A DNA stretch of 64,000 nucleotides from Mobula hypostoma (Eukaryota): positions 1,736,001-1,800,000 of the forward strand of contig NC_086097.1 of NCBI RefSeq assembly GCF_963921235.1, in the 5' to 3' direction. The translations under genes and the position numbers were made by a program. Each line of letters opens with the position of its first letter. The stretch's first letter is position 1. The notes under the pieces are model-generated. The model was given only the letters and a program-made list of their open reading frames with translations, did no database searches and had not been told where the DNA came from. Shown in pieces: positions 19,633 through 63,930 of the stretch.

Positions 19633-20594
19633 TCTCATGGTCCAGTCTGTGAAGCCCACATTCGGGTTCATGGTCCGGTCCATCGTTCTGTATTCCAGGA
19701 TTTCCAGTTTTCCCTTGTCCTGTTGTGTGCCTTAATTGAGGCACATGATTCTCATTTTGGGCTGGCTACATAAACAGTTCCCAGGTTCAGCTTCAGTTGC
19801 TGGACTGTTCCCTTCCCTTCGCCTTCCTTCTGTAGCCCTCGCCTGCTACATTCGCCTGAAGCCTTGCCCACTACCTTCGCCTGAAGCCTTGCCTGCTACC
19901 TCGCTTGTGTTCTCGCCTTCGCTAGCTAGGTCTGGCCATTTGCCGCTACCTTGTGTTAGGAACTGTCTCTATGTCCATGCCTTCGCTAGGTAGGTCCGGC
20001 CGTTTGCCACTACCTTGTGTTGGGAACTGTCTTTTTGTGCCCTCGCCTCCGCTGGTTAGGTCCAGCCGCTTGCCGCTACCTTGAGTGAAGATCTGTCTGT
20101 CAGTGTTCTGTGTATGAGTCCTGGCACTACGTCCTGCTCCCTAGGAGGGGTCCTGACTCTGTGTAGAGCCCCAGCCCAAAGTCCTGTTCCCAAGGAGGGG
20201 ACCTGGCTCTGTGTTCTATGTTCCTGTTCTCCCTCGACCAAGGGTCTGTGTTCCTGTTCTCCCTCGACCAAGTCAAGGCTTTGTGTTCTCGTCCTGTCCA
20301 CCTGTCTCACTCAGCCCAGTGCTGGGGTTCCCTTGTCCTGTCTGGGAGTCTCACGTCCAGTCCTGTAGCCACGTCTTGTCCTCGCCTGGATCCGGGGTCC
20401 AAGCCCGAGTCAAGACCCAGGTTCCGGGTCCCTGTCCAGTCTCTGGCTCGGAGTCCTTGTCCAGGGCCTGTGTCTTGTCCAGCGTTGTTTCTTCCCCATT
20501 TCCCTTGCTTGCTTGACTCACCTAGTTCTGTTCCTAGTTCTTCAGTGTCTGTGTCTTGCATTTGGGTCCGCCACCAATGCCCCCCGCTATGCCA
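19633..20594 (+). mobile_element. Solo LTR-like element, copy 1
   Basis: 5-bp TSD GAAAC (19628-19632 / 20595-20599); strongly similar to 54233-55363; internal ~60-bp tandem units. Confidence 0.8.
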
Positions 20595-20907
20595 GAAACA
20601 GACTTTTCCCCTCCATCATCGGATTTCTGAATGGACAATTAGTCCACGAACACTACCTCGTTAATTTTTTTCTTTGCTTTCTCTATTTTTGCACTGTACT
20701 AATTTTATAATATATTATATTCTCATTGTAATTTATAGTATTTGAATTATGCATTGCCTCAAAACAGCAAATTTCACATCATATGCTAGAGATATTAAAA
20801 TTGATTCGATGATAATCACACTGACTGTTAATCGCACTAACTCACCAACCGGGTCAATCGCCCTGACTCTGGGTTAACTCACTGACTCTGCGTTAATCTC
20901 ACTAGTT

Positions 20908-20970
20908 GACTGCGCCTCTTCCTATAGATGCTGCTTGGCCTGCTGCGTTCACCAGCAACTTTGATGTATG
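20908..20970 (+). mobile_element. 63-bp Penelope-tail mini-insertion
   Basis: Identical to 28181-28243; flanked by direct repeat TCACTAGTT (20899-20907 / 20971-20979). Confidence 0.85.
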
Positions 20971-20999
20971 TCACTAGTTAACCCCTCTGTTTCCATTTG

Positions 21000-21262
21000 T
21001 GACCCGGGCGGGTTCCCGTTCATCGCGTGTGCGGTAGTGCGGTGAACTCGGGGCAAGCGAGTGCACGGCCACACAAGCCCGCGCGCCACCGAGCACGTAC
21101 GCGCTTTTCCGGGAATTGGTGGCGTCACACGTTGTTGTCTCGATGCCCTGGTAACGGCGGACGTGTTTGCACCAAATATGGTCAGAGCTGCCTCACAGCG
21201 CTGATTGGACGGAGAGCCTGACGTCACGGGGGCAACGGCGTCAATGTGGCCCCACCCGCGAA
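21000..21262. promoter_or_regulatory. CpG-rich candidate distal immediate-early enhancer (or promoter)
   Basis: TTCCGGGAA 21107-21115, CCAAATATGG 21172-21181, CTGATTGG 21201-21208, TGACGTCA 21219-21226, extra GGCGTCA half-sites; CpGs retained within a CpG-depleted TE background. Confidence 0.65.
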
Positions 21263-21264
21263 GG

Positions 21265-22255
21265 GAAAGAGGGGGAGGGAGAGAAAAGAGAGAGAGAGAG
21301 AATGAGAGAGAGAGAGAAAGAATGAGAGAGAGGGAGAGAGAAGGGAGAGAGGGAATGAGAGAGAGGGAGAGAGAATGAGAGAGAGAGAGAATGAGAGAGA
21401 GGGAGAGAGAGAATGAGAGAGGAGAGGGAGAATGAGAGAGAGGGAGAGAGAATGAGAGGGAGAGAGAATGAGAGAGAGAGAGAATGAGAGAGAGGGAGAA
21501 TGAGAGAGGAGAGAGAGAATGAGAGAGAGAGAGGAGAGAATGAGAGAGAGAGAGAGAATGAGAGAGAGGGAGAATGAGAGAGGAGAGGGAGAATGAGAGA
21601 GAGGGAGAGAGAATGAGAGAGAGAGAGAGAATGAGAGAGAGGGAGAATGAGAGAGGAGAGGGAGAATGAGAGAGAGGGAGAGAGAATGAGAGAGAGAGAG
21701 AGAATGAGAGAGAGGGAGAATGAGAGAGGAGAGAATGAGAGAGAGAATGAGAGAGGAGAGGGAGAGAACGAGAGACAAGGATAGAGAGAGAATGAGAGAG
21801 GAGAGAGAGAAAGAGAGAGGGAGAGAGAGAAAATGAGAGAGAGAGAATGAGAGAGAGGGAGAGAGAATGAGAGAGGAGAGAGAGAATGAGAGAGGGGGAG
21901 AGAGAATGAGAGAGAGGGAGAGAGAATGAGAGAGGAGAGGGAGAGAACGAGAGACAGGGATAGAGAGAGAGGAGAGAGAGAATGGGAGAGAGAGAGAGAG
22001 AAAATGAGAGAGAGGGAGAGAGAATGAGAGAGAGGGAGAGAGAGAGAATGAGAGAGAGAGAGAGAGAGAGAATGAGAGAGGAGAGGGAGAGAGAATGAGA
22101 GAGAGGGAGAGAATGAGAGAGAGAGAGAATGAGAGAGAGGGAGAGAGAATGAGAGAGAGAGAGAGAATGAGAGAGGAGAGGGAGAGAACGAGAGACAGGG
22201 ATAGAGAGAGAGAATGAGAGAGATGGAGGGGAGAGAGAGAGGAGAGGGAGAGGTA
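21265..22255. repeat. Compound (GA)n/GAGAAT polypurine microsatellite, about 1 kb
   Basis: Almost exclusively G/A on the plus strand, with periodic AAT interruptions. Confidence 0.97.
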
Positions 22256-25974: not shown

Positions 25975-26919
25975 CTTGTCTTCACCCAGCCAGATTCAAG
26001 GAGAACCTGATCATTAAATTTGCAGACGATACCACAGTGGTGGGGCTCATCAGCAAAAATGCTGTAACTATGTACAGGGAGGAGGTCAAACACCTAGAGA
26101 GCTGGTGCAGGGATAACAACTTGATGCTTAATGTCACCAAAACCAAGGGGATGATCGTCGATTTCAGACGGTCTCAGCCTAAGCACACACCCCTCAGCAT
26201 CAGCGTCTCCACAGTGGAGAGAGTGGAAAACATCAAGTTCCTTGGGGCGCAGATCTCGGACAATCTCATCTGGTCCAGGAACACCACTGGGATTGTGAAA
26301 CGGGCCCAGCAGGGATTGCACTTTCTGAGGAAGCTTAAACAAGCATCACTCCCCACTAATATCTTAACTACATTCTACAGAGGCGTGGTTGAGAGTGTGC
26401 TGACCTTTTGCATCACAACCTGGTACTCCAGCTGCAGTGCTGTCGACAAAAAAGCCTTGCAGAGGGTGGTTAGGGGAGCAGAGAAGGTTATTGGGGACTC
26501 CCTACCTTCTGTCCAAGACCTCTTTCAGAGTCGATGCCTCCAGAAGACACGGTACATCATTAAAGACCCCTCACACCCTCTCCATGAACTGTTTGTTCTT
26601 CTGCCATCAGGCAAACGTTACAGGAGCATCAAAACTAAACTACAAGGCTACTAAACAGCTTCCTCCCACAGGCAGTCAGACTGCTAAATAGCTGCTCCAC
26701 CTGACTCTGCTTTGGACACTTTTAACTTGCACTGGACACTTATAACTGATTTTAACTGACACGTGGCTGTTGTGTTTTACTACTTATTGTTATGTTTATT
26801 ATTTAGTGTTGTGTTTGTTATGTTATGATTGCACTGCTCCTGGGAAACGCTGTCTCGTTCTGCCCTGCAGAGCTGATGTACGATTAGAATGACAATAACG
26901 TTTTTTGAATCTTGAATCT
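25975..26919 (+). mobile_element. Rex1/Babar-like LINE 3' portion
   Basis: KFADDTTVVGLI, LNVTKTK.MIVDFR, KFLG, ESVLTFCITTWY, DPSHP; (TTGAATC)n tail. Confidence 0.88.
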
Positions 26920-27135
26920 ACTTTCCTGGTAGCATCCTTGACAAATTGTATAAGATTGGTTAGACACAACCTACCACTCACAAAGCCATGCTGAATATTC
27001 CTACTCAGTTCCTGTCCATCCAAATACTCATATATCTAAACAACAGGAATTCTGCAGATGCTGGAAATTCAAGCAACATACATCAAAGTTGCTGGTGAAC
27101 GCAGCAGGCCAGGCAGCATCTCTAAGAAGAGGCGC

Positions 27136-27171
27136 AGTCGACGTTTCAGGCCAAGACCCTTCGTCAGGACT
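27136..27171 (-). ncRNA. Minimal type I hammerhead ribozyme (PLE terminus), intact core
   Basis: AGUC-CUGACGA-AGGGUCUUGGCCU-GAAA-C-GUC^GACU: stem I AGUC/GACU, conserved boxes, loop-less palindromic stem III ACGU. Confidence 0.75.
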
Positions 27172-28148
27172 AACTGAAGGAAGAGTGAGTAAGGGATTTG
27201 AAAGCTGGAGGGGGAGGGGGAGATCCAAAATGATAGGAGAAGACAGGAGGGGGAGGGATAGAGCCAAGAGCTGGACAGGTGATAGACAGAAGGGGATACG
27301 AGAGGATCATGGGACAGGAGGTCCGGGAAGAGAGACAAGGGGGGGGTGACCCAGAGGATGGGCAAGAGGTATATTCAGAGGGACAGAGGGAGAAAAAGGA
27401 GAGTGAGAGAAAGAATGTGTGCATAAAAATGAGTAACAGATGGGGTACGAGGGGGAGGTGGGGCCTTAGCGGAAGTTAGAGAAGTCGATGTTCATGCCAT
27501 CAGGTTGGAGGCTACCCAGACGGAATGTAAGGTGTTGTTCCTCCAACCTGAGTGTGGCCTCATCTCCACAGTAGAGGAGGCCGTGGACAGACATGTCAGA
27601 ATGGGAATGGGATGTGGAATTAAAATGTGTGGCCACTGGGAGATCCTGCTTTCTCTGGCGGACAGAGAAAGCAGGATCTCCCAGAGGCCACACATTTTAA
27701 TTCCACATCCCATTTCCATTCTGACATGTCCATCCACGGCCTCCTCTACTGTAAAGATGAAGCCACACTCAGGTTGGAGGAACAACACCTTACATTCCGT
27801 CTGGGTAGCCTCCAACCTGATGGCATGAACATCGACTTCTCTAACTTCCGCTAAGGCCCCACCTCCCCCTCGTACCCCATCTGTTACTCATTTTTATGCA
27901 CACATTCTTTCTCTCACTCTCCTTTTTCTCCCTCTGTCCCTCTGAATATACCTCTTGCCCATCCTCTGGGTCACCCCCCCCTTGTCTCTCTTCCCGGACC
28001 TCCTGTCCCATGATCCTCTCGTATCCCCTTTTGCCTATCACCTGTCCAGCTCTCGGCTCTATCCCTCCCCCTCCTGTCTTCTCCTATCATTTTGCATCTC
28101 CCCCTCCCCCTCCAGCTTTCAAATCCCTTACTCACTCTTCCTTCAGTT

Positions 28149-28184
28149 AGTCCTGACAAAGGGTCTCGGCCTGAAACGTCGACT
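28149..28184 (+). ncRNA. Hammerhead ribozyme copy with G8A core mutation
   Basis: AGTC-CTGACAA-AGGGTCTCGGCCT-GAAACGTC-GACT. Confidence 0.6.
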
Positions 28185-28714
28185 GCGCCTCTTCCTATAG
28201 ATGCTGCTTGGCCTGCTGCGTTCACCAGCAACTTTGATGTATGTTACTCATATATCTGGTCTCTTACAAAACCTTCCAATAACTTTCCCACAACTGGTGT
28301 CAGACTCACTGGCCTATAATTTCCTGGTTTATGTTTAGAGCCTTTCTTAAACAGTGGAACAATATTGGCCATCCTCCAATCCTCTGGTACTATTTCTGTT
28401 GCTTCGGGTGTTGTAAATATCTCTGCTAGAGCCCCAGCAATTTCTGTACTTGCCTCCTACAGATCCGGGGGAACACTTTATCAGGCCCTGGGGATTTATC
28501 CATCTTAATCTGCCTCAGGACAGCAAACACCTCCTCCTCTAATCTGTACAGAACTCATGAAGTTGATGCCACTTTGCCTCACCTCTATAGACTCTGTGTC
28601 CAATTGCCTCACTTCTGTAGATTCTGAGTCTGACTCCTGAGTAAACACAGATATAAACAATCCATTTAAGATCTCCCTCATCTCTTTTGGCTCCATACAT
28701 AGCTATCCATTCTG

Positions 28715-41579: not shown

Positions 41580-42510
41580 CTATCAGGAAGGCCTTCAAGT
41601 TCTCCGCTTCTCTCTGGACAACAGACCCGACCAGCTCCCCTCCACCACCCTCCTCCGTCTGGTAGAACCGCTCCTCACCCTTAACAATTTCCCTTTCTGC
41701 TCCTTCCCTCCCCGCTCTTTCTCAGAACTCAGGGTATAGCCACGGGCCGCGGCCATGCTTACCGTTTCATTAGCGAGTGGAACAATTTATGTTCCAGGTC
41801 CCTCAGGGCCACATTGACGACTGCATGCACTCATTCTGAGCTCGTCAATTTCATCAACTTTCCTCCAATTTCCAACAGCCCTTAAATTCCCTTAGTCCAT
41901 TTCTGACATCTTTCTCGGTCTCTCTGGAGACAAGACTGTCCAATGATTTTTTTATTTATAAACTTCCCGATTCCCACAGATATATTGACTCCACCCAAAC
42001 TGTCACTTGAATAAATGCTGTTCCCTTTTCTCGGTTCCTTCGTCTCCGCAGCATCTGTACCCAGGATGAGGCCTTCATTTGCAGAACATCTGAAAGAACG
42101 GGGTTCCCTTCCTCCACCATTGACGCTACCCTCACCCGCATCTCCTCCATCCGCCGCCGCACCTGATGAAGGGTTTCAGCCCGAAACGTCGACCATACTC
42201 TTTTTCCATAGATACTGCCTGACCTGCTGGGTTCCTCCAACATTTTGATGTGTTGCTGGGATTTCCAGTATCCGCAGATTATCTCGTTTGTGAACAGTCT
42301 ACGTTTCGGGCCGACTCCCTTCACCGGGCCACAATTCTCTGTAATTCCTGCCATCTTCATTTGGATCAAAATACATCTCCCAATTTCTCAGTTCATCTCC
42401 CCTCCCCCCGCCTTCTTATTCTGGCATTTTCCCAGTCCCGGCGAAGGGCGTCAACTGTTTATTCATTTCCATAGATACTGGCTGAGCTGAGTTCTCCCAG
42501 GATTTTTGCT
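41580..42510 (+). mobile_element. Decayed Penelope-like RT fragment with rearranged termini
   Basis: DNRPDQ.PS.T.LLRL.E..LTLNNF and AVPFSRFLRLRSIC PLE-RT remnants; CTGATGAAGGG..CCCGAAACGTCGAC at 42163-42193. Confidence 0.7.
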
Positions 42511-58423: not shown

Positions 58424-61400
58424 ACAAAATACTCTGCAGATGCTGGGGTCGAAGCAACACTCACAACACGCTGGAGGAACTCAGCAGGTCAGGCAGCATC
58501 CGTGGAAAAGATAAGTCGACGTTTTGGGCCGGAACCCTTCATCAGGACTGTAGAGGGAAGGGGCAGAGGCCCTATAAAGAAGGTGGGGGGGGAGGGTGGG
58601 AAGGAGAAGGCTGGTAGGTTCCAGGTGAAAAACCAGTAAGGGGAAAGATAAAGGGGTGGGGAAGGGAGGCAGGGAGGTGATAGGCAGGAGAGGTGAAGAA
58701 AGAATAGGAGAAAACACAATGGGTAGTAGAAGGAGGCGGAACCAGGAGGGAGGAGGTAGGCAGCTGGGGGAGGGGGCAGAGTGACATAGGGATAGAGGAA
58801 GGGAGGGGGAGGGAATTAACAGAAGTTGGAGAATTCTATGTTCATACCAAGGGGCTGGAGACTACATAGACGGTATATGAGGTGTTTCTCCTCCAACCTG
58901 AGTTTAGCCTCATCATGGCAGTAGAGGAGGCCATGTATGGACATATCTGAATGGGAGTGGGAAGCAGAGTTGAAGTGGGTGGCTACTGGGGGATCCTGTC
59001 TGTTTTGGCGGACGGAGCGGAGGTGCTCGATGAAGCGGTCCCCCAATCTGCGTCCGGTTTCACCGATGTAGAGGAGGCCGCAACGGGAGCACCGGATGCA
59101 ATAGATAGAACATAGGACATAGAATAGTACAGCACAGTACAGGCCCTTCGGCCCACAATGTTGTGCTGACCCTCAAACCCTGCCTCCCATATAAGCCCCC
59201 ACCTTAGATTCCTCCATATACCTGTCTAGTAGTCTCTTAAACTTCACTAGTGTATCTGCCTCCACCACTGACTCAGGCAGTGCAGTCCACGCACCAACCA
59301 CTCTCTGAGTAAAAAACCTTCCTCTAATATCCCCCTTGAACTTCCCATCCCTTACCTTAAAGCCATGTCCTCTTGTATTGAGCAGTGGTGCCCTGGGGAA
59401 GAGGCACTGGCTATCCACTCTATCTATTCCTCTTATTATCTTGTACACTTCTATCATGTCTCCTCTCATCCTCCTTCTCTCCAAAGAGTAAAGCCCTAGC
59501 TCCCTTAATCTCTGATCATAATGCATACTCTCTAAACCAGGCAGCATCCTGGTAAATCTCCTCTGTACCCTTTCCAATGCTTCCACATCCTTCCTATAGT
59601 GAGGTGACCAGAACTGGACACAGTACTGCAAGTGTGGCCTAACCAGAGTTTTATAGAGCTGCATCATTACCTCGTGACTCTTAAACTCTATCCCTCGACT
59701 TATGAAAGCTAATACCCCATAAGCTTTCTTAACTACCCTATCCACCTGTGAGGCAACTTTCAGGGATCTGTGGACATGTACCCCGAGATCCCTCTGCTCT
59801 TCCACACTACCAAGTATCCTGCCATTTACTTTGTACTCTGTCTTGGAGTTTGTCCTTCCAAAGTGTACCACCTCACACTTCCCCGGGTTGAACTCCATCT
59901 GCCACTTCTCAGCCCACTTCTGCATCCTATCAATGTCTCTCTGCAATCTTTGACAATACTCTACACTATCTACAACACCACCAACCTTTGTGTCGTCTGC
60001 AAACTTGCCAACCCACCCTTCTATCCCCACATCCAGGTCGTTAATAAAAATCACGAAAAGTAGAGGTCCCAGAACAGATCCTTGTGGGATACCACTAGTC
60101 ACAATCTCCAATCTGAATGTACTCCCTCCACCACCACCCTCTGCCTTCTGCAGGCAAGCCAATTCTGAATCCACCTGGCCAAACTTCCCTGGATCCCATG
60201 CCTTCTAACTTTCTGAATAAGCCGACCGTGTGGAACCTTGTTAAATGCCTTACAAAAATCCATATAGATCACATCCACTGCACTACCCTCATCTATATGC
60301 CTGGTCACCTCCTCAAAGAACTCTATCAGGCTTGTTAGACACGATCTGCCCTTCACAAAGCCATGCTGACTGTCCCTGATCAGACCATGATTCTCTAAAT
60401 GCCTATAGATCCTATCTCTAAGAATCTTTTCCCAACAGCTTTCCCACCACAGACGTAAGGCTCACTGGTGTATAATTACCCGGACTATCCCTACTACCTT
60501 TTTTGAACAAGGGAACAACATTCACCTCCCTCCAATCCTCCGGTACCATTTCCGTGGACCACGAGGACATAAAGATCCTAGCCAGAGGCTCAGCAATCTC
60601 TTCTCTCGCCTCGTGGAGCAGCCTGGGGAATATTCCGTCAGGCCCCGGGGACTTATCTGTCCTAATGTATTTTAACAACTCCAACACCTCTTCTCCCTTA
60701 ATATCAGCATGCTCCAGAACATAAACCTCACTCATATTGTGCTCACCATCATCAAGTTCCCTCTCATTGGTGAATATTGAAGAGAAGTATTCATTGAGGA
60801 CCTCGCTCACTTCCACAGCCTCCAGGCACATCTTTCCACCTTTATCTCTAATCGGTCCTACCTTCACTCCTGTCATCCTTTTTTTTTCCTTCACATAATT
60901 GAAGAATGCCTTGGGGTTTTCCCTTACCCTACTCGCCAAGGCCTTCTCATGCCCCCTTCTTGCTCTTCTCAGCCCCTTCTTAAGCTCCTTTCTTGCTTCC
61001 CTATATTCCTCAATAGACCCATCTGATCCTTGCTTCCTAAACCTCATGTATGCTGCCTTCTTCCTCCTGACTAGATTTTCCACCTCACTTGTCACCCATG
61101 GTTCCTTCACCCTACCATTCTTTATCTTCCTCACCGGGACAAATTTATCCCTAACATCCTGCAAGACATCTCTAAACATCGACCACATGGCCATAGTACA
61201 TTTCCCTGCAAAAACATCATCCCAATTCACACCCGCAAGTTCTAGCCTTATAGCCTCATAATTTGCCTTTCCCCAATTAAAAATTTTCCTGTCCTCTTTG
61301 ATTCTATCCTTTTCCATGATAATTATAAAGGCCAGGGAGCGGTGCTCACTGTCCCCCAGATGCTCACCCACTGAGAGATCTGTGACCTGACCCGGTTCAT

Positions 61401-63739: not shown

Positions 63740-63930
63740 AACCTCCCCCCCCCCCACCCCACCCCACCTTTTTATTCAGCTTCTTCCCACTTCCTTTCCA
63801 GTCCCGATGAAGGGTCTCGGCCCGAAATATCTACTGGTTATTCCCCTCTATAATGTTGTCTGACCTGCAGAATTCCTTTCGCATTTACGTGTCTTTCTCT
63901 GGATTTCCAGCATCTGCAGTGTCCTGTGTT
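63740..63930 (+). mobile_element. Decayed PLE terminus with degenerate hammerhead
   Basis: CAGTC-CCGATGA-AGGGTCTCGGCCC-GAAATATC-TACTG then TTTCCAGCATCTGCAG tail. Confidence 0.6.

What the first reader, a model, noticed from the sequence alone, without database searches (positions are those of the whole stretch)
20899..20979. 63-bp TSD-flanked retro-insertion that starts exactly at the predicted hammerhead cleavage site
Seen: 20908-20970 is identical to the PLE tail at 28181-28243. It begins at GACTGCGCC, the first base after the GUC^ cleavage triplet, and is flanked by a 9-bp direct repeat TCACTAGTT. Its 3' end (..GATGTATG/T) is the same position at which the right arm of the 27-28 kb insertion ends. 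Inference: this is a genomic fossil of the ribozyme's 3' cleavage product, reverse-transcribed by the PLE RT from a fixed priming point. That would be in vivo evidence of cleavage and could define a class of ribozyme-bounded micro-retroposons.
Basis: partly seen in the sequence, partly recalled or inferred. Interest (0 to 1): 0.8.

Follow-up and report, generated by a model that had tools for sequence, protein, structure and literature searches.

The report
Tiny truncated Penelope-like retrotransposon copy
This is a very short, recent copy of the tail of an extremely abundant Penelope-like retrotransposon; it does start at the element's predicted ribozyme cut site, but genome-wide that start point is only one of several favoured ones, so it does not prove that the ribozyme cuts in living cells.

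Summary
Window 20908-20970 equals 28181-28243 (63/63), has perfect 9-bp repeats TCACTAGTT on both sides, and begins at the G after GUC of a minimal hammerhead. The identity is not a local link: the 63-mer occurs 6,589 times in the 3.48-Gb genome.

It is an extremely 5'-truncated copy of a Penelope-like element (PLE). Its 3' end lies in the proximal of two 3'-end zones. In 30 sampled arms, 13 end at +64..+72, 17 at +100 or beyond, and none between. This matches the two internal reverse-transcription start sites and the optional "tail" published for PLEs (PMC11167929).

The ribozyme-bounded reading is only partly supported. Junctions that start at +1 number 191, against 19-59 at -2, -1, +2, +3 and +4. 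Estimated solo insertions are about 42 at +1 and 27 at +2, against 0-9 at five neighbouring positions. But +6 (about 28), +8 (about 76) and +10 (about 75) are as strong or stronger.

So there is a local peak at the cut site, but no ribozyme-bounded class. RNA ends and an empty site could not be tested. My odds for the cause of this copy's 5' end: ordinary truncation about 0.6, ribozyme run-off about 0.35.

The parts
20899..20907 (.). left copy of the 9-bp target-site duplication TCACTAGTT
   Evidence: it overlaps the end of a 19-bp, 2.1-copy tandem repeat at 20863-20903
20908..20970 (+). 63-bp insert = positions +1..+63 after the hammerhead cut of the PLE (the 3' end may be +64 because the next base, T, also matches)
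   Evidence: identical to 6,589 genomic copies
20971..20979 (.). right copy of the target-site duplication TCACTAGTT
27026..27037 (.). left target-site duplication ACTCATATATCT of the inverted PLE pair
   Evidence: read
27038..27660 (-). left arm: 5'-truncated PLE copy with the end of the ORF, a hammerhead with intact core (CTGACGA) and the long tail to +102
27135..27172 (-). minimal hammerhead of the left arm (helix I 5 bp, CUGACGA, unpaired A, helix II 4 bp, GAAA, ACGU, cut between 27140 and 27139)
   Evidence: sequence read
27661..28245 (+). right arm: 5'-truncated PLE copy that ends at the proximal 3' zone (+64/+65); 97.1% identical to the left arm
28148..28185 (+). hammerhead of the right arm, core mutated (CTGACAA: G8 to A); cut site between 28180 and 28181
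28246..28257 (.). right target-site duplication ACTCATATATCT of the inverted pair
   Evidence: read
42162..42278 (+). older, diverged copy of the hammerhead plus full tail with canonical CTGATGA (about 77% identity)
58433..58998 (-). older diverged copy (two BLAST pieces, 58433-58549 and 58779-58998) with canonical CTGATGA and full tail
63751..63836 (+). older diverged fragment covering the hammerhead region (core reads CCCGATGA in this copy, C3-U4 changed)

Best explanation
The 63-bp segment is a young, extremely 5'-truncated copy of a very abundant Penelope-like element (PLE), made by target-primed reverse transcription. The element's endonuclease made staggered nicks in the target, which gave the 9-bp duplication. 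Reverse transcription started inside the element RNA at the proximal of two start zones, about 63-72 nt after the hammerhead cut site. Only 63-64 nt were copied before the cDNA end was joined to the target. Copies this short are common in this genome, and their 5' ends fall at many positions in and just after the hammerhead. The start at G+1 is most likely one outcome of that ordinary truncation and junction process (RT stopping or pausing at the folded or protein-bound ribozyme, or choice of junction), and does not need RNA self-cleavage. Shown: insert identity, target duplication, the 3'-end zones, the jagged 5'-end landscape. Inferred: the order of events and the cause of the 5' end.
For: PLE identity: the copy in L023 carries a 380-aa open frame ending ...GMNIDFSNFR, with a GIY-YIG match (E 9.2e-4, 19.9 bits). 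The Atlas neighbours carry HTH_animal, GIY-YIG and RVT_1. The hammerhead lies about 325 nt after the stop codon. The window holds an inverted pair of 5'-truncated arms with target duplication. 3' ends: 13 of 30 arms end at +64..+72, 17 at +100 or beyond, none between. Genome-wide hits at +63, +64 and +65 are 607, 718 and 900 against 65,422 that continue. The gap of 30-40 nt matches the published optional tail and the two internal RT start sites (PMC11167929 main text; PMC8557442 passages). 5' ends, as estimated solo insertions: -3: 9, -2: 6, -1: 6.5, +1: 42, +2: 27, +3: 0, +4: 7.5, +6: 28, +8: 76, +10: 75. In an unbiased sample of 30 arms, 17 run beyond -43, 9 end within -43..-1, 4-5 end within +1..+32, and the only solo at +1 is the finding itself. 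PMC11167929 reports that hammerhead mutants do not change insertion in vitro and that no RNA-seq reads begin or end at the cut site in Anolis.
Against: +1 is the highest of the seven positions measured from -3 to +4 (191 against 19-88), and solos at +1/+2 exceed the five nearest measured positions about six-fold. A run-off at a cleaved RNA end would produce exactly this. 39 of the 88 hits at -3 are perfect GCAGTC|GACTGC palindromes, that is, two arms that both start at G+1. The causes of the +6, +8 and +10 hot spots are unknown, so they are an imperfect null. The solo fractions rest on samples of 19-50 loci per position and have wide intervals.
Confidence: 0.6

Rival explanations
1. Ribozyme run-off. 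The PLE hammerhead cleaves some element RNAs in vivo. The 3' product starts with G+1 and still holds the internal RT start zones. The PLE RT copies it to its very end, which gives micro-insertions of about 63-72 or 100-106 bp that begin at +1, or at +2 when the last base is not copied.
For: There is a local peak of junctions at +1: 191 against 19, 29, 59, 50 and 50 at -2, -1, +2, +3 and +4. Estimated solos are about 42 at +1 and 27 at +2, against 0-9 at -3, -2, -1, +3 and +4. Eleven solo insertions that start at +1 were seen among 50 sampled junctions. Several have a clear target duplication: L040 11 bp, L057 7 bp, L060 10 bp, L245 14 bp. Two or three are short-form like the finding: L242 ends at +67, L258 at +66. 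About 20 head-to-head pairs have both arms starting at G+1. The core CUGANGA...GAAA...GUC is kept in most of the continuing copies shown and in the three older copies with CTGATGA or a close variant.
Against: +8 and +10 have more solo 5' ends (about 76 and 75, more after correction for the narrower prefix set), and +6 has about as many (28). None of these can come from cleavage. 39 of 50 sampled +1 junctions are inverted-pair junctions or indels. Many have GAC microhomology to the helix-I strand (prefix CAG in 25 of the 100 rows listed), and the palindromes can also arise by 6-bp GTCGAC overlap. Published in vitro and RNA-seq data for a lizard PLE gave no sign that cleaved RNA is the template (PMC11167929). 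No RNA ends could be examined here.
Confidence: 0.35
2. Deletion remnant: a longer PLE copy once sat here and lost everything upstream of G+1 by a later deletion.
For: Internal deletions that end at or near the cut site do exist in other copies (for example L182, L034, L017).
Against: The perfect 9-bp duplication abuts both ends of the 63 bp directly. A later deletion would have had to remove the upstream element exactly up to the left duplicate. The insert has 0 differences from the subfamily master sequence, with both CpG sites intact, so little time has passed.
Confidence: 0.03
3. DNA-level copy: the 63 bp was copied from the nearby right arm (28181-28243) by repair synthesis or gene conversion, not through RNA.
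For: The two are 63/63 identical and share three variant positions that differ in the left arm.
Against: The same 63-mer occurs 6,589 times, so identity to the neighbour carries no information. A target-site duplication and a 3' end in the family's usual priming zone are signs of retro-insertion.
Confidence: 0.02

Closest known systems
Endonuclease-positive Penelope-like elements (Penelope/Poseidon type): 5'-truncated, tandem or inverted insertions with an optional 30-40-bp tail (PMC8557442 passages; PMC11167929 main text)
   Same: Strong 5' truncation; an inverted 5'-truncated partner arm; target duplications; a GIY-YIG-type C-terminus; a hammerhead just upstream of the RT start sites; two 3'-end zones 30-40 nt apart.
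   Different: The copy is only 63 bp, far shorter than what is usually catalogued. Here the hammerhead lies about 325 nt after the ORF stop, and the RT start zones lie 63-72 and 100-106 nt after the cut. The lizard element studied in vitro starts 85-92 nt after the cut. The full-length structure of this family was not examined.
Minimal hammerhead ribozymes of PLEs (Cervera and de la Pena 2014, PMC4209133, passages read)
   Same: Type-I layout; CUGANGA, GAAA and GUC cores; short helix I (5 bp); an unpaired base at the 5' end of stem II; helix III reduced to a small palindrome (ACGU), which is thought to need dimers; dual motifs on opposite strands 100-700 bp apart.
   Different: Helix II here is 4 bp, against 6-8 bp in the flatworm and fly examples. 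No Rfam model matches it. Activity is unknown.
HDV-like ribozymes that set the 5' end of non-LTR retrotransposon RNAs (R2 and others; named in PMC4209133; details recalled)
   Different: A different ribozyme class. There the ribozyme sits upstream of the whole element and its product is the full-length template. Here the product would be only the last 63-106 nt, and the evidence is a modest local peak.
Retrozymes (hammerhead-bounded non-autonomous retroelements that form circular RNAs; PMC12029980 and PMC11722881 seen as search listing only)
   Same: Hammerhead-delimited RNA units linked to retrotransposition.
   Different: Retrozymes are cut at two hammerheads and circularised. The 63-bp insert holds no ribozyme and has one putative ribozyme-made end only.

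Membership tests
Penelope-like element (EN+) | GIY-YIG endonuclease domain at the C-terminus of the single ORF | tested here: inconclusive
   L023:1-1140 (380 aa) matches PF01541 at E 9.2e-4, 19.9 bits, below the curated 22.6 bits. Atlas neighbours carry GIY-YIG on 12-45% of members.
Penelope-like element (EN+) | telomerase-like reverse transcriptase domain | not tested
   Only the last 380 aa and one 222-aa N-terminal piece were scanned. There was no RVT_1 Pfam hit. RVT_1 appears on 10% of members of one Atlas neighbour cluster. A KPADKGG motif was seen by eye in L003; the DKG motif is named in PMC8557442.
Penelope-like element (EN+) | 5'-truncated insertions, often with an inverted 5'-truncated partner, and target-site duplication | tested here: met
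   Window 27038-28245 with duplication ACTCATATATCT. Many -/+ pairs genome-wide.
Penelope-like element (EN+) | optional 30-40-bp tail, that is, two alternative 3' ends | tested here: met
   13 of 30 arms end at +64..+72, 17 at +100 or beyond, none between.
Penelope-like element (EN+) | pseudo-LTRs from partial tandem copies | not tested
   No full-length or tandem copy was examined.
Hammerhead ribozyme (minimal PLE type) | conserved core C3 U4 G5 A6 N7 G8 A9 ... G12 A13 A14 ... A15.1/U16.1, H17 | tested here: met
   Left arm and most copies: CUGACGA...GAAACGUC. Two older copies have CUGAUGA. The right arm has G8 to A.
Hammerhead ribozyme (minimal PLE type) | helices I and II around the core | tested here: inconclusive
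   The minimum-energy fold of the left arm shows a 5-bp helix I and a 4-bp helix II, but the stretch folds no better than shuffles (z +1.1). Covariation was not analysed.
Hammerhead ribozyme (Rfam families) | match to an Rfam hammerhead covariance model | tested here: not met
   No hit at gathering score in the whole window, and none at E up to 10 in 26900-28400. Minimal motifs without helix III are reported to escape standard descriptors (PMC4209133).
Hammerhead ribozyme | self-cleavage after H17 | not testable with these tools
   All runs found are kept as contigs, which cannot show RNA ends.
Proposed class: ribozyme-bounded micro-retroposons | 5' ends of insertions with target duplication peak at G+1 and nowhere else nearby | tested here: inconclusive
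   There is a local peak at +1/+2 (about 42 and 27 estimated solos against 0-9 at five neighbours), but +6, +8 and +10 give about 28, 76 and 75.

The most novel reading that the evidence does not exclude
The PLE minimal hammerhead does cut in vivo in this vertebrate. Its short 3' product, which still contains the internal RT entry zones, is itself reverse-transcribed to its end. This leaves roughly 100-250 micro-insertions that begin at G+1 or A+2, plus about 20 head-to-head pairs with both arms at G+1. That would be the first genomic trace of in vivo PLE ribozyme activity.
Probability: 0.3. Interest if true: 0.65.

Novelty: new member of a known kind. Interest (0 to 1): 0.35.

Why it matters
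The role of the hammerheads conserved in Penelope-like elements is an open question. The one in vitro study read here found that cleavage is dispensable for insertion and saw no cleaved RNA in public RNA-seq (PMC11167929). A genomic excess of copies starting exactly at the cut would be indirect in vivo evidence. This genome is a good place to ask: it holds more than 40,000 copies of the hammerhead-tail junction, and the +1/+2 local peak is real. But other equally strong 5'-end hot spots mean the genomic pattern alone cannot settle the matter. Independently of the ribozyme, the data reproduce the two-zone internal priming signature described for a lizard PLE, in a second vertebrate and at genome scale.

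Tried and rejected
1. A BLAST-type search of the 63-mer in the own genome found nothing because very common words are skipped. It was replaced by exact pattern counts.

2. Rfam found no hammerhead. The only hits are microRNA-like matches to the centre of the inverted pair (27586-27782). They are artefacts of a perfect long hairpin.

3. Empty-site test with public runs. Only assembled contigs were available. Contigs of organism A (possibly the assembly's own sample) run from the left flank into the insert (20608-20934, 0 differences) and from the insert into the right flank (20951-21267). Runs X5 and X9 give no cover on the unique flanks. In X10 one contig stops at 20898 and another starts at 20996, and no joint across is listed (48 joints were not shown). 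No conclusion on presence or absence in relatives can be drawn.

4. RNA 5' ends: no raw-read RNA run was offered, so this was not testable.

Short stretches were fetched instead.

7. Thermodynamic support for the hammerhead fold: none (z +0.6 to +1.1).

8. PDB sequence search with the ORF end: no relative. Pfam on the N-terminal ORF piece: nothing.

9. Earlier notes of this scan: none for this genome.

10. Snap-back synthesis as the origin of the 27-28 kb inverted pair was considered and rejected. The arms carry different subfamily variants (TAGAG/CCTGG against TATAG/CTTGG), so two RNAs were copied.

Full report
**Observation.** Window 20908-20970 is identical to 28181-28243 (63 of 63). The 9-mer TCACTAGTT stands directly before and after it (20899-20907 and 20971-20979). 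The base before the insert (T) differs from the element's C, so the 5' boundary is exact. One further T is shared at the 3' side, so the 3' end is +63 or +64. Six copies of the element's tail from the window were aligned. The insert begins directly after ...GAAACGTC, the end of a CTGANGA-N13-GAAA-CGTC motif. All positions below are numbered from that cut: G of GACTGCGCC is +1.

**What the source element is.**
- Window 27038-28245 is a head-to-head pair of 5'-truncated copies. The left arm is 27038-27660 on the minus strand and the right arm is 27661-28245 on the plus strand. They are 97.1% identical and flanked by the duplication ACTCATATATCT.
- Each arm holds the end of an open frame (...LRLEEQHLTFRLGSLQPDGMNIDFSNFR*). 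About 325 nt further on comes the hammerhead, then the tail.
- A longer copy elsewhere in the genome (L023) gives a 380-aa open frame. It has a weak GIY-YIG match (E 9.2e-4, 19.9 bits, below Pfam's cut-off of 22.6).
- The nearest protein-atlas clusters carry HTH_animal, GIY-YIG and, in one cluster, RVT_1 on 10% of members (a lead, not a test).
- No reverse-transcriptase domain was tested directly, and no solved structure is related.
- Together with the features below, I file the element as an endonuclease-positive Penelope-like element (PLE), with the reverse transcriptase untested.

**The ribozyme motif.**
- The left arm reads UAGUC-CUGACGA-A-GGGU-CUUG-GCCU-GAAA-CG-UC^GACUG.
- The minimum-energy fold draws a 5-bp helix I and a 4-bp helix II. 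The stretch is no more stable than shuffled sequence (z +1.1).
- The layout fits the minimal PLE hammerheads described by Cervera and de la Pena (PMC4209133, passages read): type I, short helix I, one unpaired base at the start of stem II, helix III reduced to a small palindrome, and probably active only as a dimer or with help.
- The right arm has G8 changed to A. Older copies at 42162-42278 and 58433-58998 have canonical CUGAUGA.
- No Rfam hammerhead model matches.

**Abundance.** The window lies in a 3.48-Gb assembly. Exact pattern counts give:

| Pattern | Copies |
|---|---|
| 31-mer at +33..+63 | 17,892 |
| Whole 63-mer | 6,589 |
| GTC plus +1..+27 (polymorphic sites left open) | 42,098 |
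| +41..+68 | 65,422 |

All reversed-pattern controls gave 0. The identity of the insert to the nearby right arm therefore says nothing about a local link. The 63-mer is the master form of a young subfamily. The insert has no difference from it, and both CpG sites are intact, so the insertion is recent.

**The 3' end.**
- I took the first 30 genomic hits of the 31-mer as an unbiased sample of arms. Of these, 13 end at +64..+72, 17 run to +100 or beyond, and none ends between. One search measured 28 of them; L009 and L015 were read by eye.
- Genome-wide, junctions were counted where the next three bases all differ from the element. They number 607 at +63, 718 at +64 and 900 at +65.
- So the insert ends in a recurrent zone, within 1-2 nt of the right arm's end.
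- This is the published PLE signature. Frangieh et al. (PMC11167929, main text read) showed that a lizard PLE protein starts reverse transcription at two adjacent sites inside the RNA. The optional 30-40-bp genomic 'tail' is the sequence between them. Craig et al. (PMC8557442, passages) describe the same tail, the strong 5' truncation and the inverted partner arms.
- The 'fixed priming point' is real, but it is already known.

**The 5' end: method.** For each start position I counted genomic matches that keep the element from that position to +27 while the three bases upstream are all forced to differ from the element.

| Position | Total junctions |
|---|---|
| -3 | 88 |
| -2 | 19 |
| -1 | 29 |
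| +1 | 191 |
| +2 | 59 |
| +3 | 50 |
| +4 | 50 |
| +6 | 113 |
| +8 | 217 |
| +10 | 150 |

The prefix sets for +8 and +10 accept only 28% of random flanks, against 42% for the others. Their true numbers are therefore relatively higher.

These totals mix three things: solo insertions, junctions with an inverted partner arm, and 1-3-nt indels in copies that continue. I therefore fetched the first 19-50 listed loci per position. At -3 I fetched the first 20 of the 49 rows without the GCA prefix. I called a locus 'solo' when the 70 nt upstream had no match to the element.

| Position | Solos in sample | Estimated solos genome-wide (95% interval) |
|---|---|---|
| -3 | 3.5 of 20 | about 9 |
| -2 | 6 of 19 | 6 |
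| -1 | 4.5 of 20 | about 6.5 |
| +1 | 11 of 50 | about 42 (22-69) |
| +2 | 9 of 20 | about 27 |
| +3 | 0 of 20 | 0 (0-8) |
| +4 | 3 of 20 | about 7.5 |
| +6 | 5 of 20 | about 28 |
| +8 | 7 of 20 | about 76 |
| +10 | 10 of 20 | about 75 |

Half counts are loci I could not call. Estimates are total times fraction.

**The 5' end: reading.**
- 5' ends are not random. +1/+2 is a local peak, about six-fold above the five nearest measured positions.
- Real analogues of the finding exist. Eleven solos start at +1. Several have clear target duplications: L040 11 bp, L057 7 bp, L060 10 bp, L245 14 bp. Two or three end in the proximal zone like the finding: L242 at +67 and L258 at +66.
- 39 of the 88 hits at -3 are perfect GCAGTC|GACTGC palindromes, that is, about 20 loci where two arms both begin at G+1.
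- Against this, +8 and +10 are stronger hot spots and +6 is as strong, and cleavage cannot explain any of them.
- 39 of the 50 sampled +1 junctions are not solos. A quarter of the listed +1 rows carry the prefix CAG. This is the inverted arm ending in ...CGTCAG joined at GAC, a 3-nt overlap between the two strands of helix I. The palindromes can equally form by overlap of the 6-bp GTCGAC.
- In the unbiased 30-arm sample, 17 arms run beyond -43, 9 end inside the ribozyme region, 4-5 end in +1..+32, and the only solo at +1 is the finding itself.
- The landscape is jagged across the whole hammerhead region. In such a landscape a local peak at +1 is weak evidence.

**Mechanism and odds.**
- Nearly certain (about 0.95): target-primed reverse transcription of a PLE RNA, started in the proximal internal zone and ended after 63-64 nt, with a 9-bp target duplication.
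- For the cause of the 5' end I give about 0.6 to ordinary truncation: RT stop or pause at the folded or protein-bound ribozyme, or choice of junction.
- I give about 0.35 to run-off at a ribozyme-cleaved RNA end.
- The published in vitro work found that hammerhead mutants insert normally and saw no RNA-seq reads ending at the cut (PMC11167929). This lowers the prior for cleaved templates. The universal conservation of the motif in PLEs (PMC4209133) keeps the idea alive.
- A deletion remnant (0.03) is unlikely because the duplication abuts both ends. A DNA-level copy of the neighbour (0.02) is unlikely for the reasons given under abundance.

**What could not be done.** All public runs that hold the locus are kept as assembled contigs, so RNA starts cannot be seen. 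Laying four runs on 20400-21500 confirmed the two insert junctions in contigs of organism A, possibly the assembly's own sample. It gave no contig that bridges or skips the insert in three other organisms, so the empty-site test is open. Supplementary figures of PMC11167929 (S1, S2) were not read.

**Verdict.** The object is an ordinary, if unusually short, member of a known kind. The ribozyme-bounded class is not established, but it is not excluded either.

Noticed in passing
window 27038-28245: The two arms of the inverted PLE pair carry different subfamily-diagnostic variants in the tail (TAGAG/CCTGG against TATAG/CTTGG) and different 3' ends (long tail against proximal end). They were therefore copied from two different RNAs, one per target strand, not by snap-back of one cDNA. 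This fits the published finding that the PLE protein nicks and extends both strands.
   Followed up: partly
own genome, about 20 loci listed (e.g. G000:C1:69869166-69869219): Perfect palindromes ...GGCGCAGTC|GACTGCGCC...: two tail copies joined head to head, both starting exactly at the hammerhead cut (or overlapping by the 6-bp GTCGAC). They make up 39 of the 88 junction hits at position -3.
   Followed up: partly
own genome, positions +8 and +10 of the tail: Strong hot spots of solo 5' ends inside CCTCTTCC (about 75 estimated each). The upstream flank often ends in T-runs (TTT is among the commonest prefixes listed for +10). The cause is unknown.
   Followed up: partly
L182 and the seven TTA-prefixed rows: Copies in which the whole catalytic core and helix II are missing, with helix-I strand TTAGTC joined directly to GACTGC. 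This looks like a deletion between the two GTC repeats, and it removes the ribozyme.
   Followed up: no
window 27586-27782: Rfam E-value scan gives microRNA-family matches (MIR1883, mir-4679, mir-4803 and others, all far below their gathering scores). They arise only because the centre of the inverted PLE pair is a long perfect hairpin.
   Followed up: yes
window 20400-20660: Another very high-copy repeat just upstream of the insertion site. Summed contig word depth is 10^4-10^6 in all four runs laid, from four differently labelled organisms.
   Followed up: no
window 20863-20903 and 21275-21400: The insertion site sits at the end of a 19-bp, 2.1-copy tandem repeat. A (GA)n-rich microsatellite of about 125 bp lies 300 bp downstream, after a GC-rich stretch.
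   Followed up: no
L001 82-963 (minus strand): One sampled PLE tail copy is nested in a different retroelement, with a LINE-like reverse-transcriptase reading frame (293 aa). The family is named by eye only.
   Followed up: no
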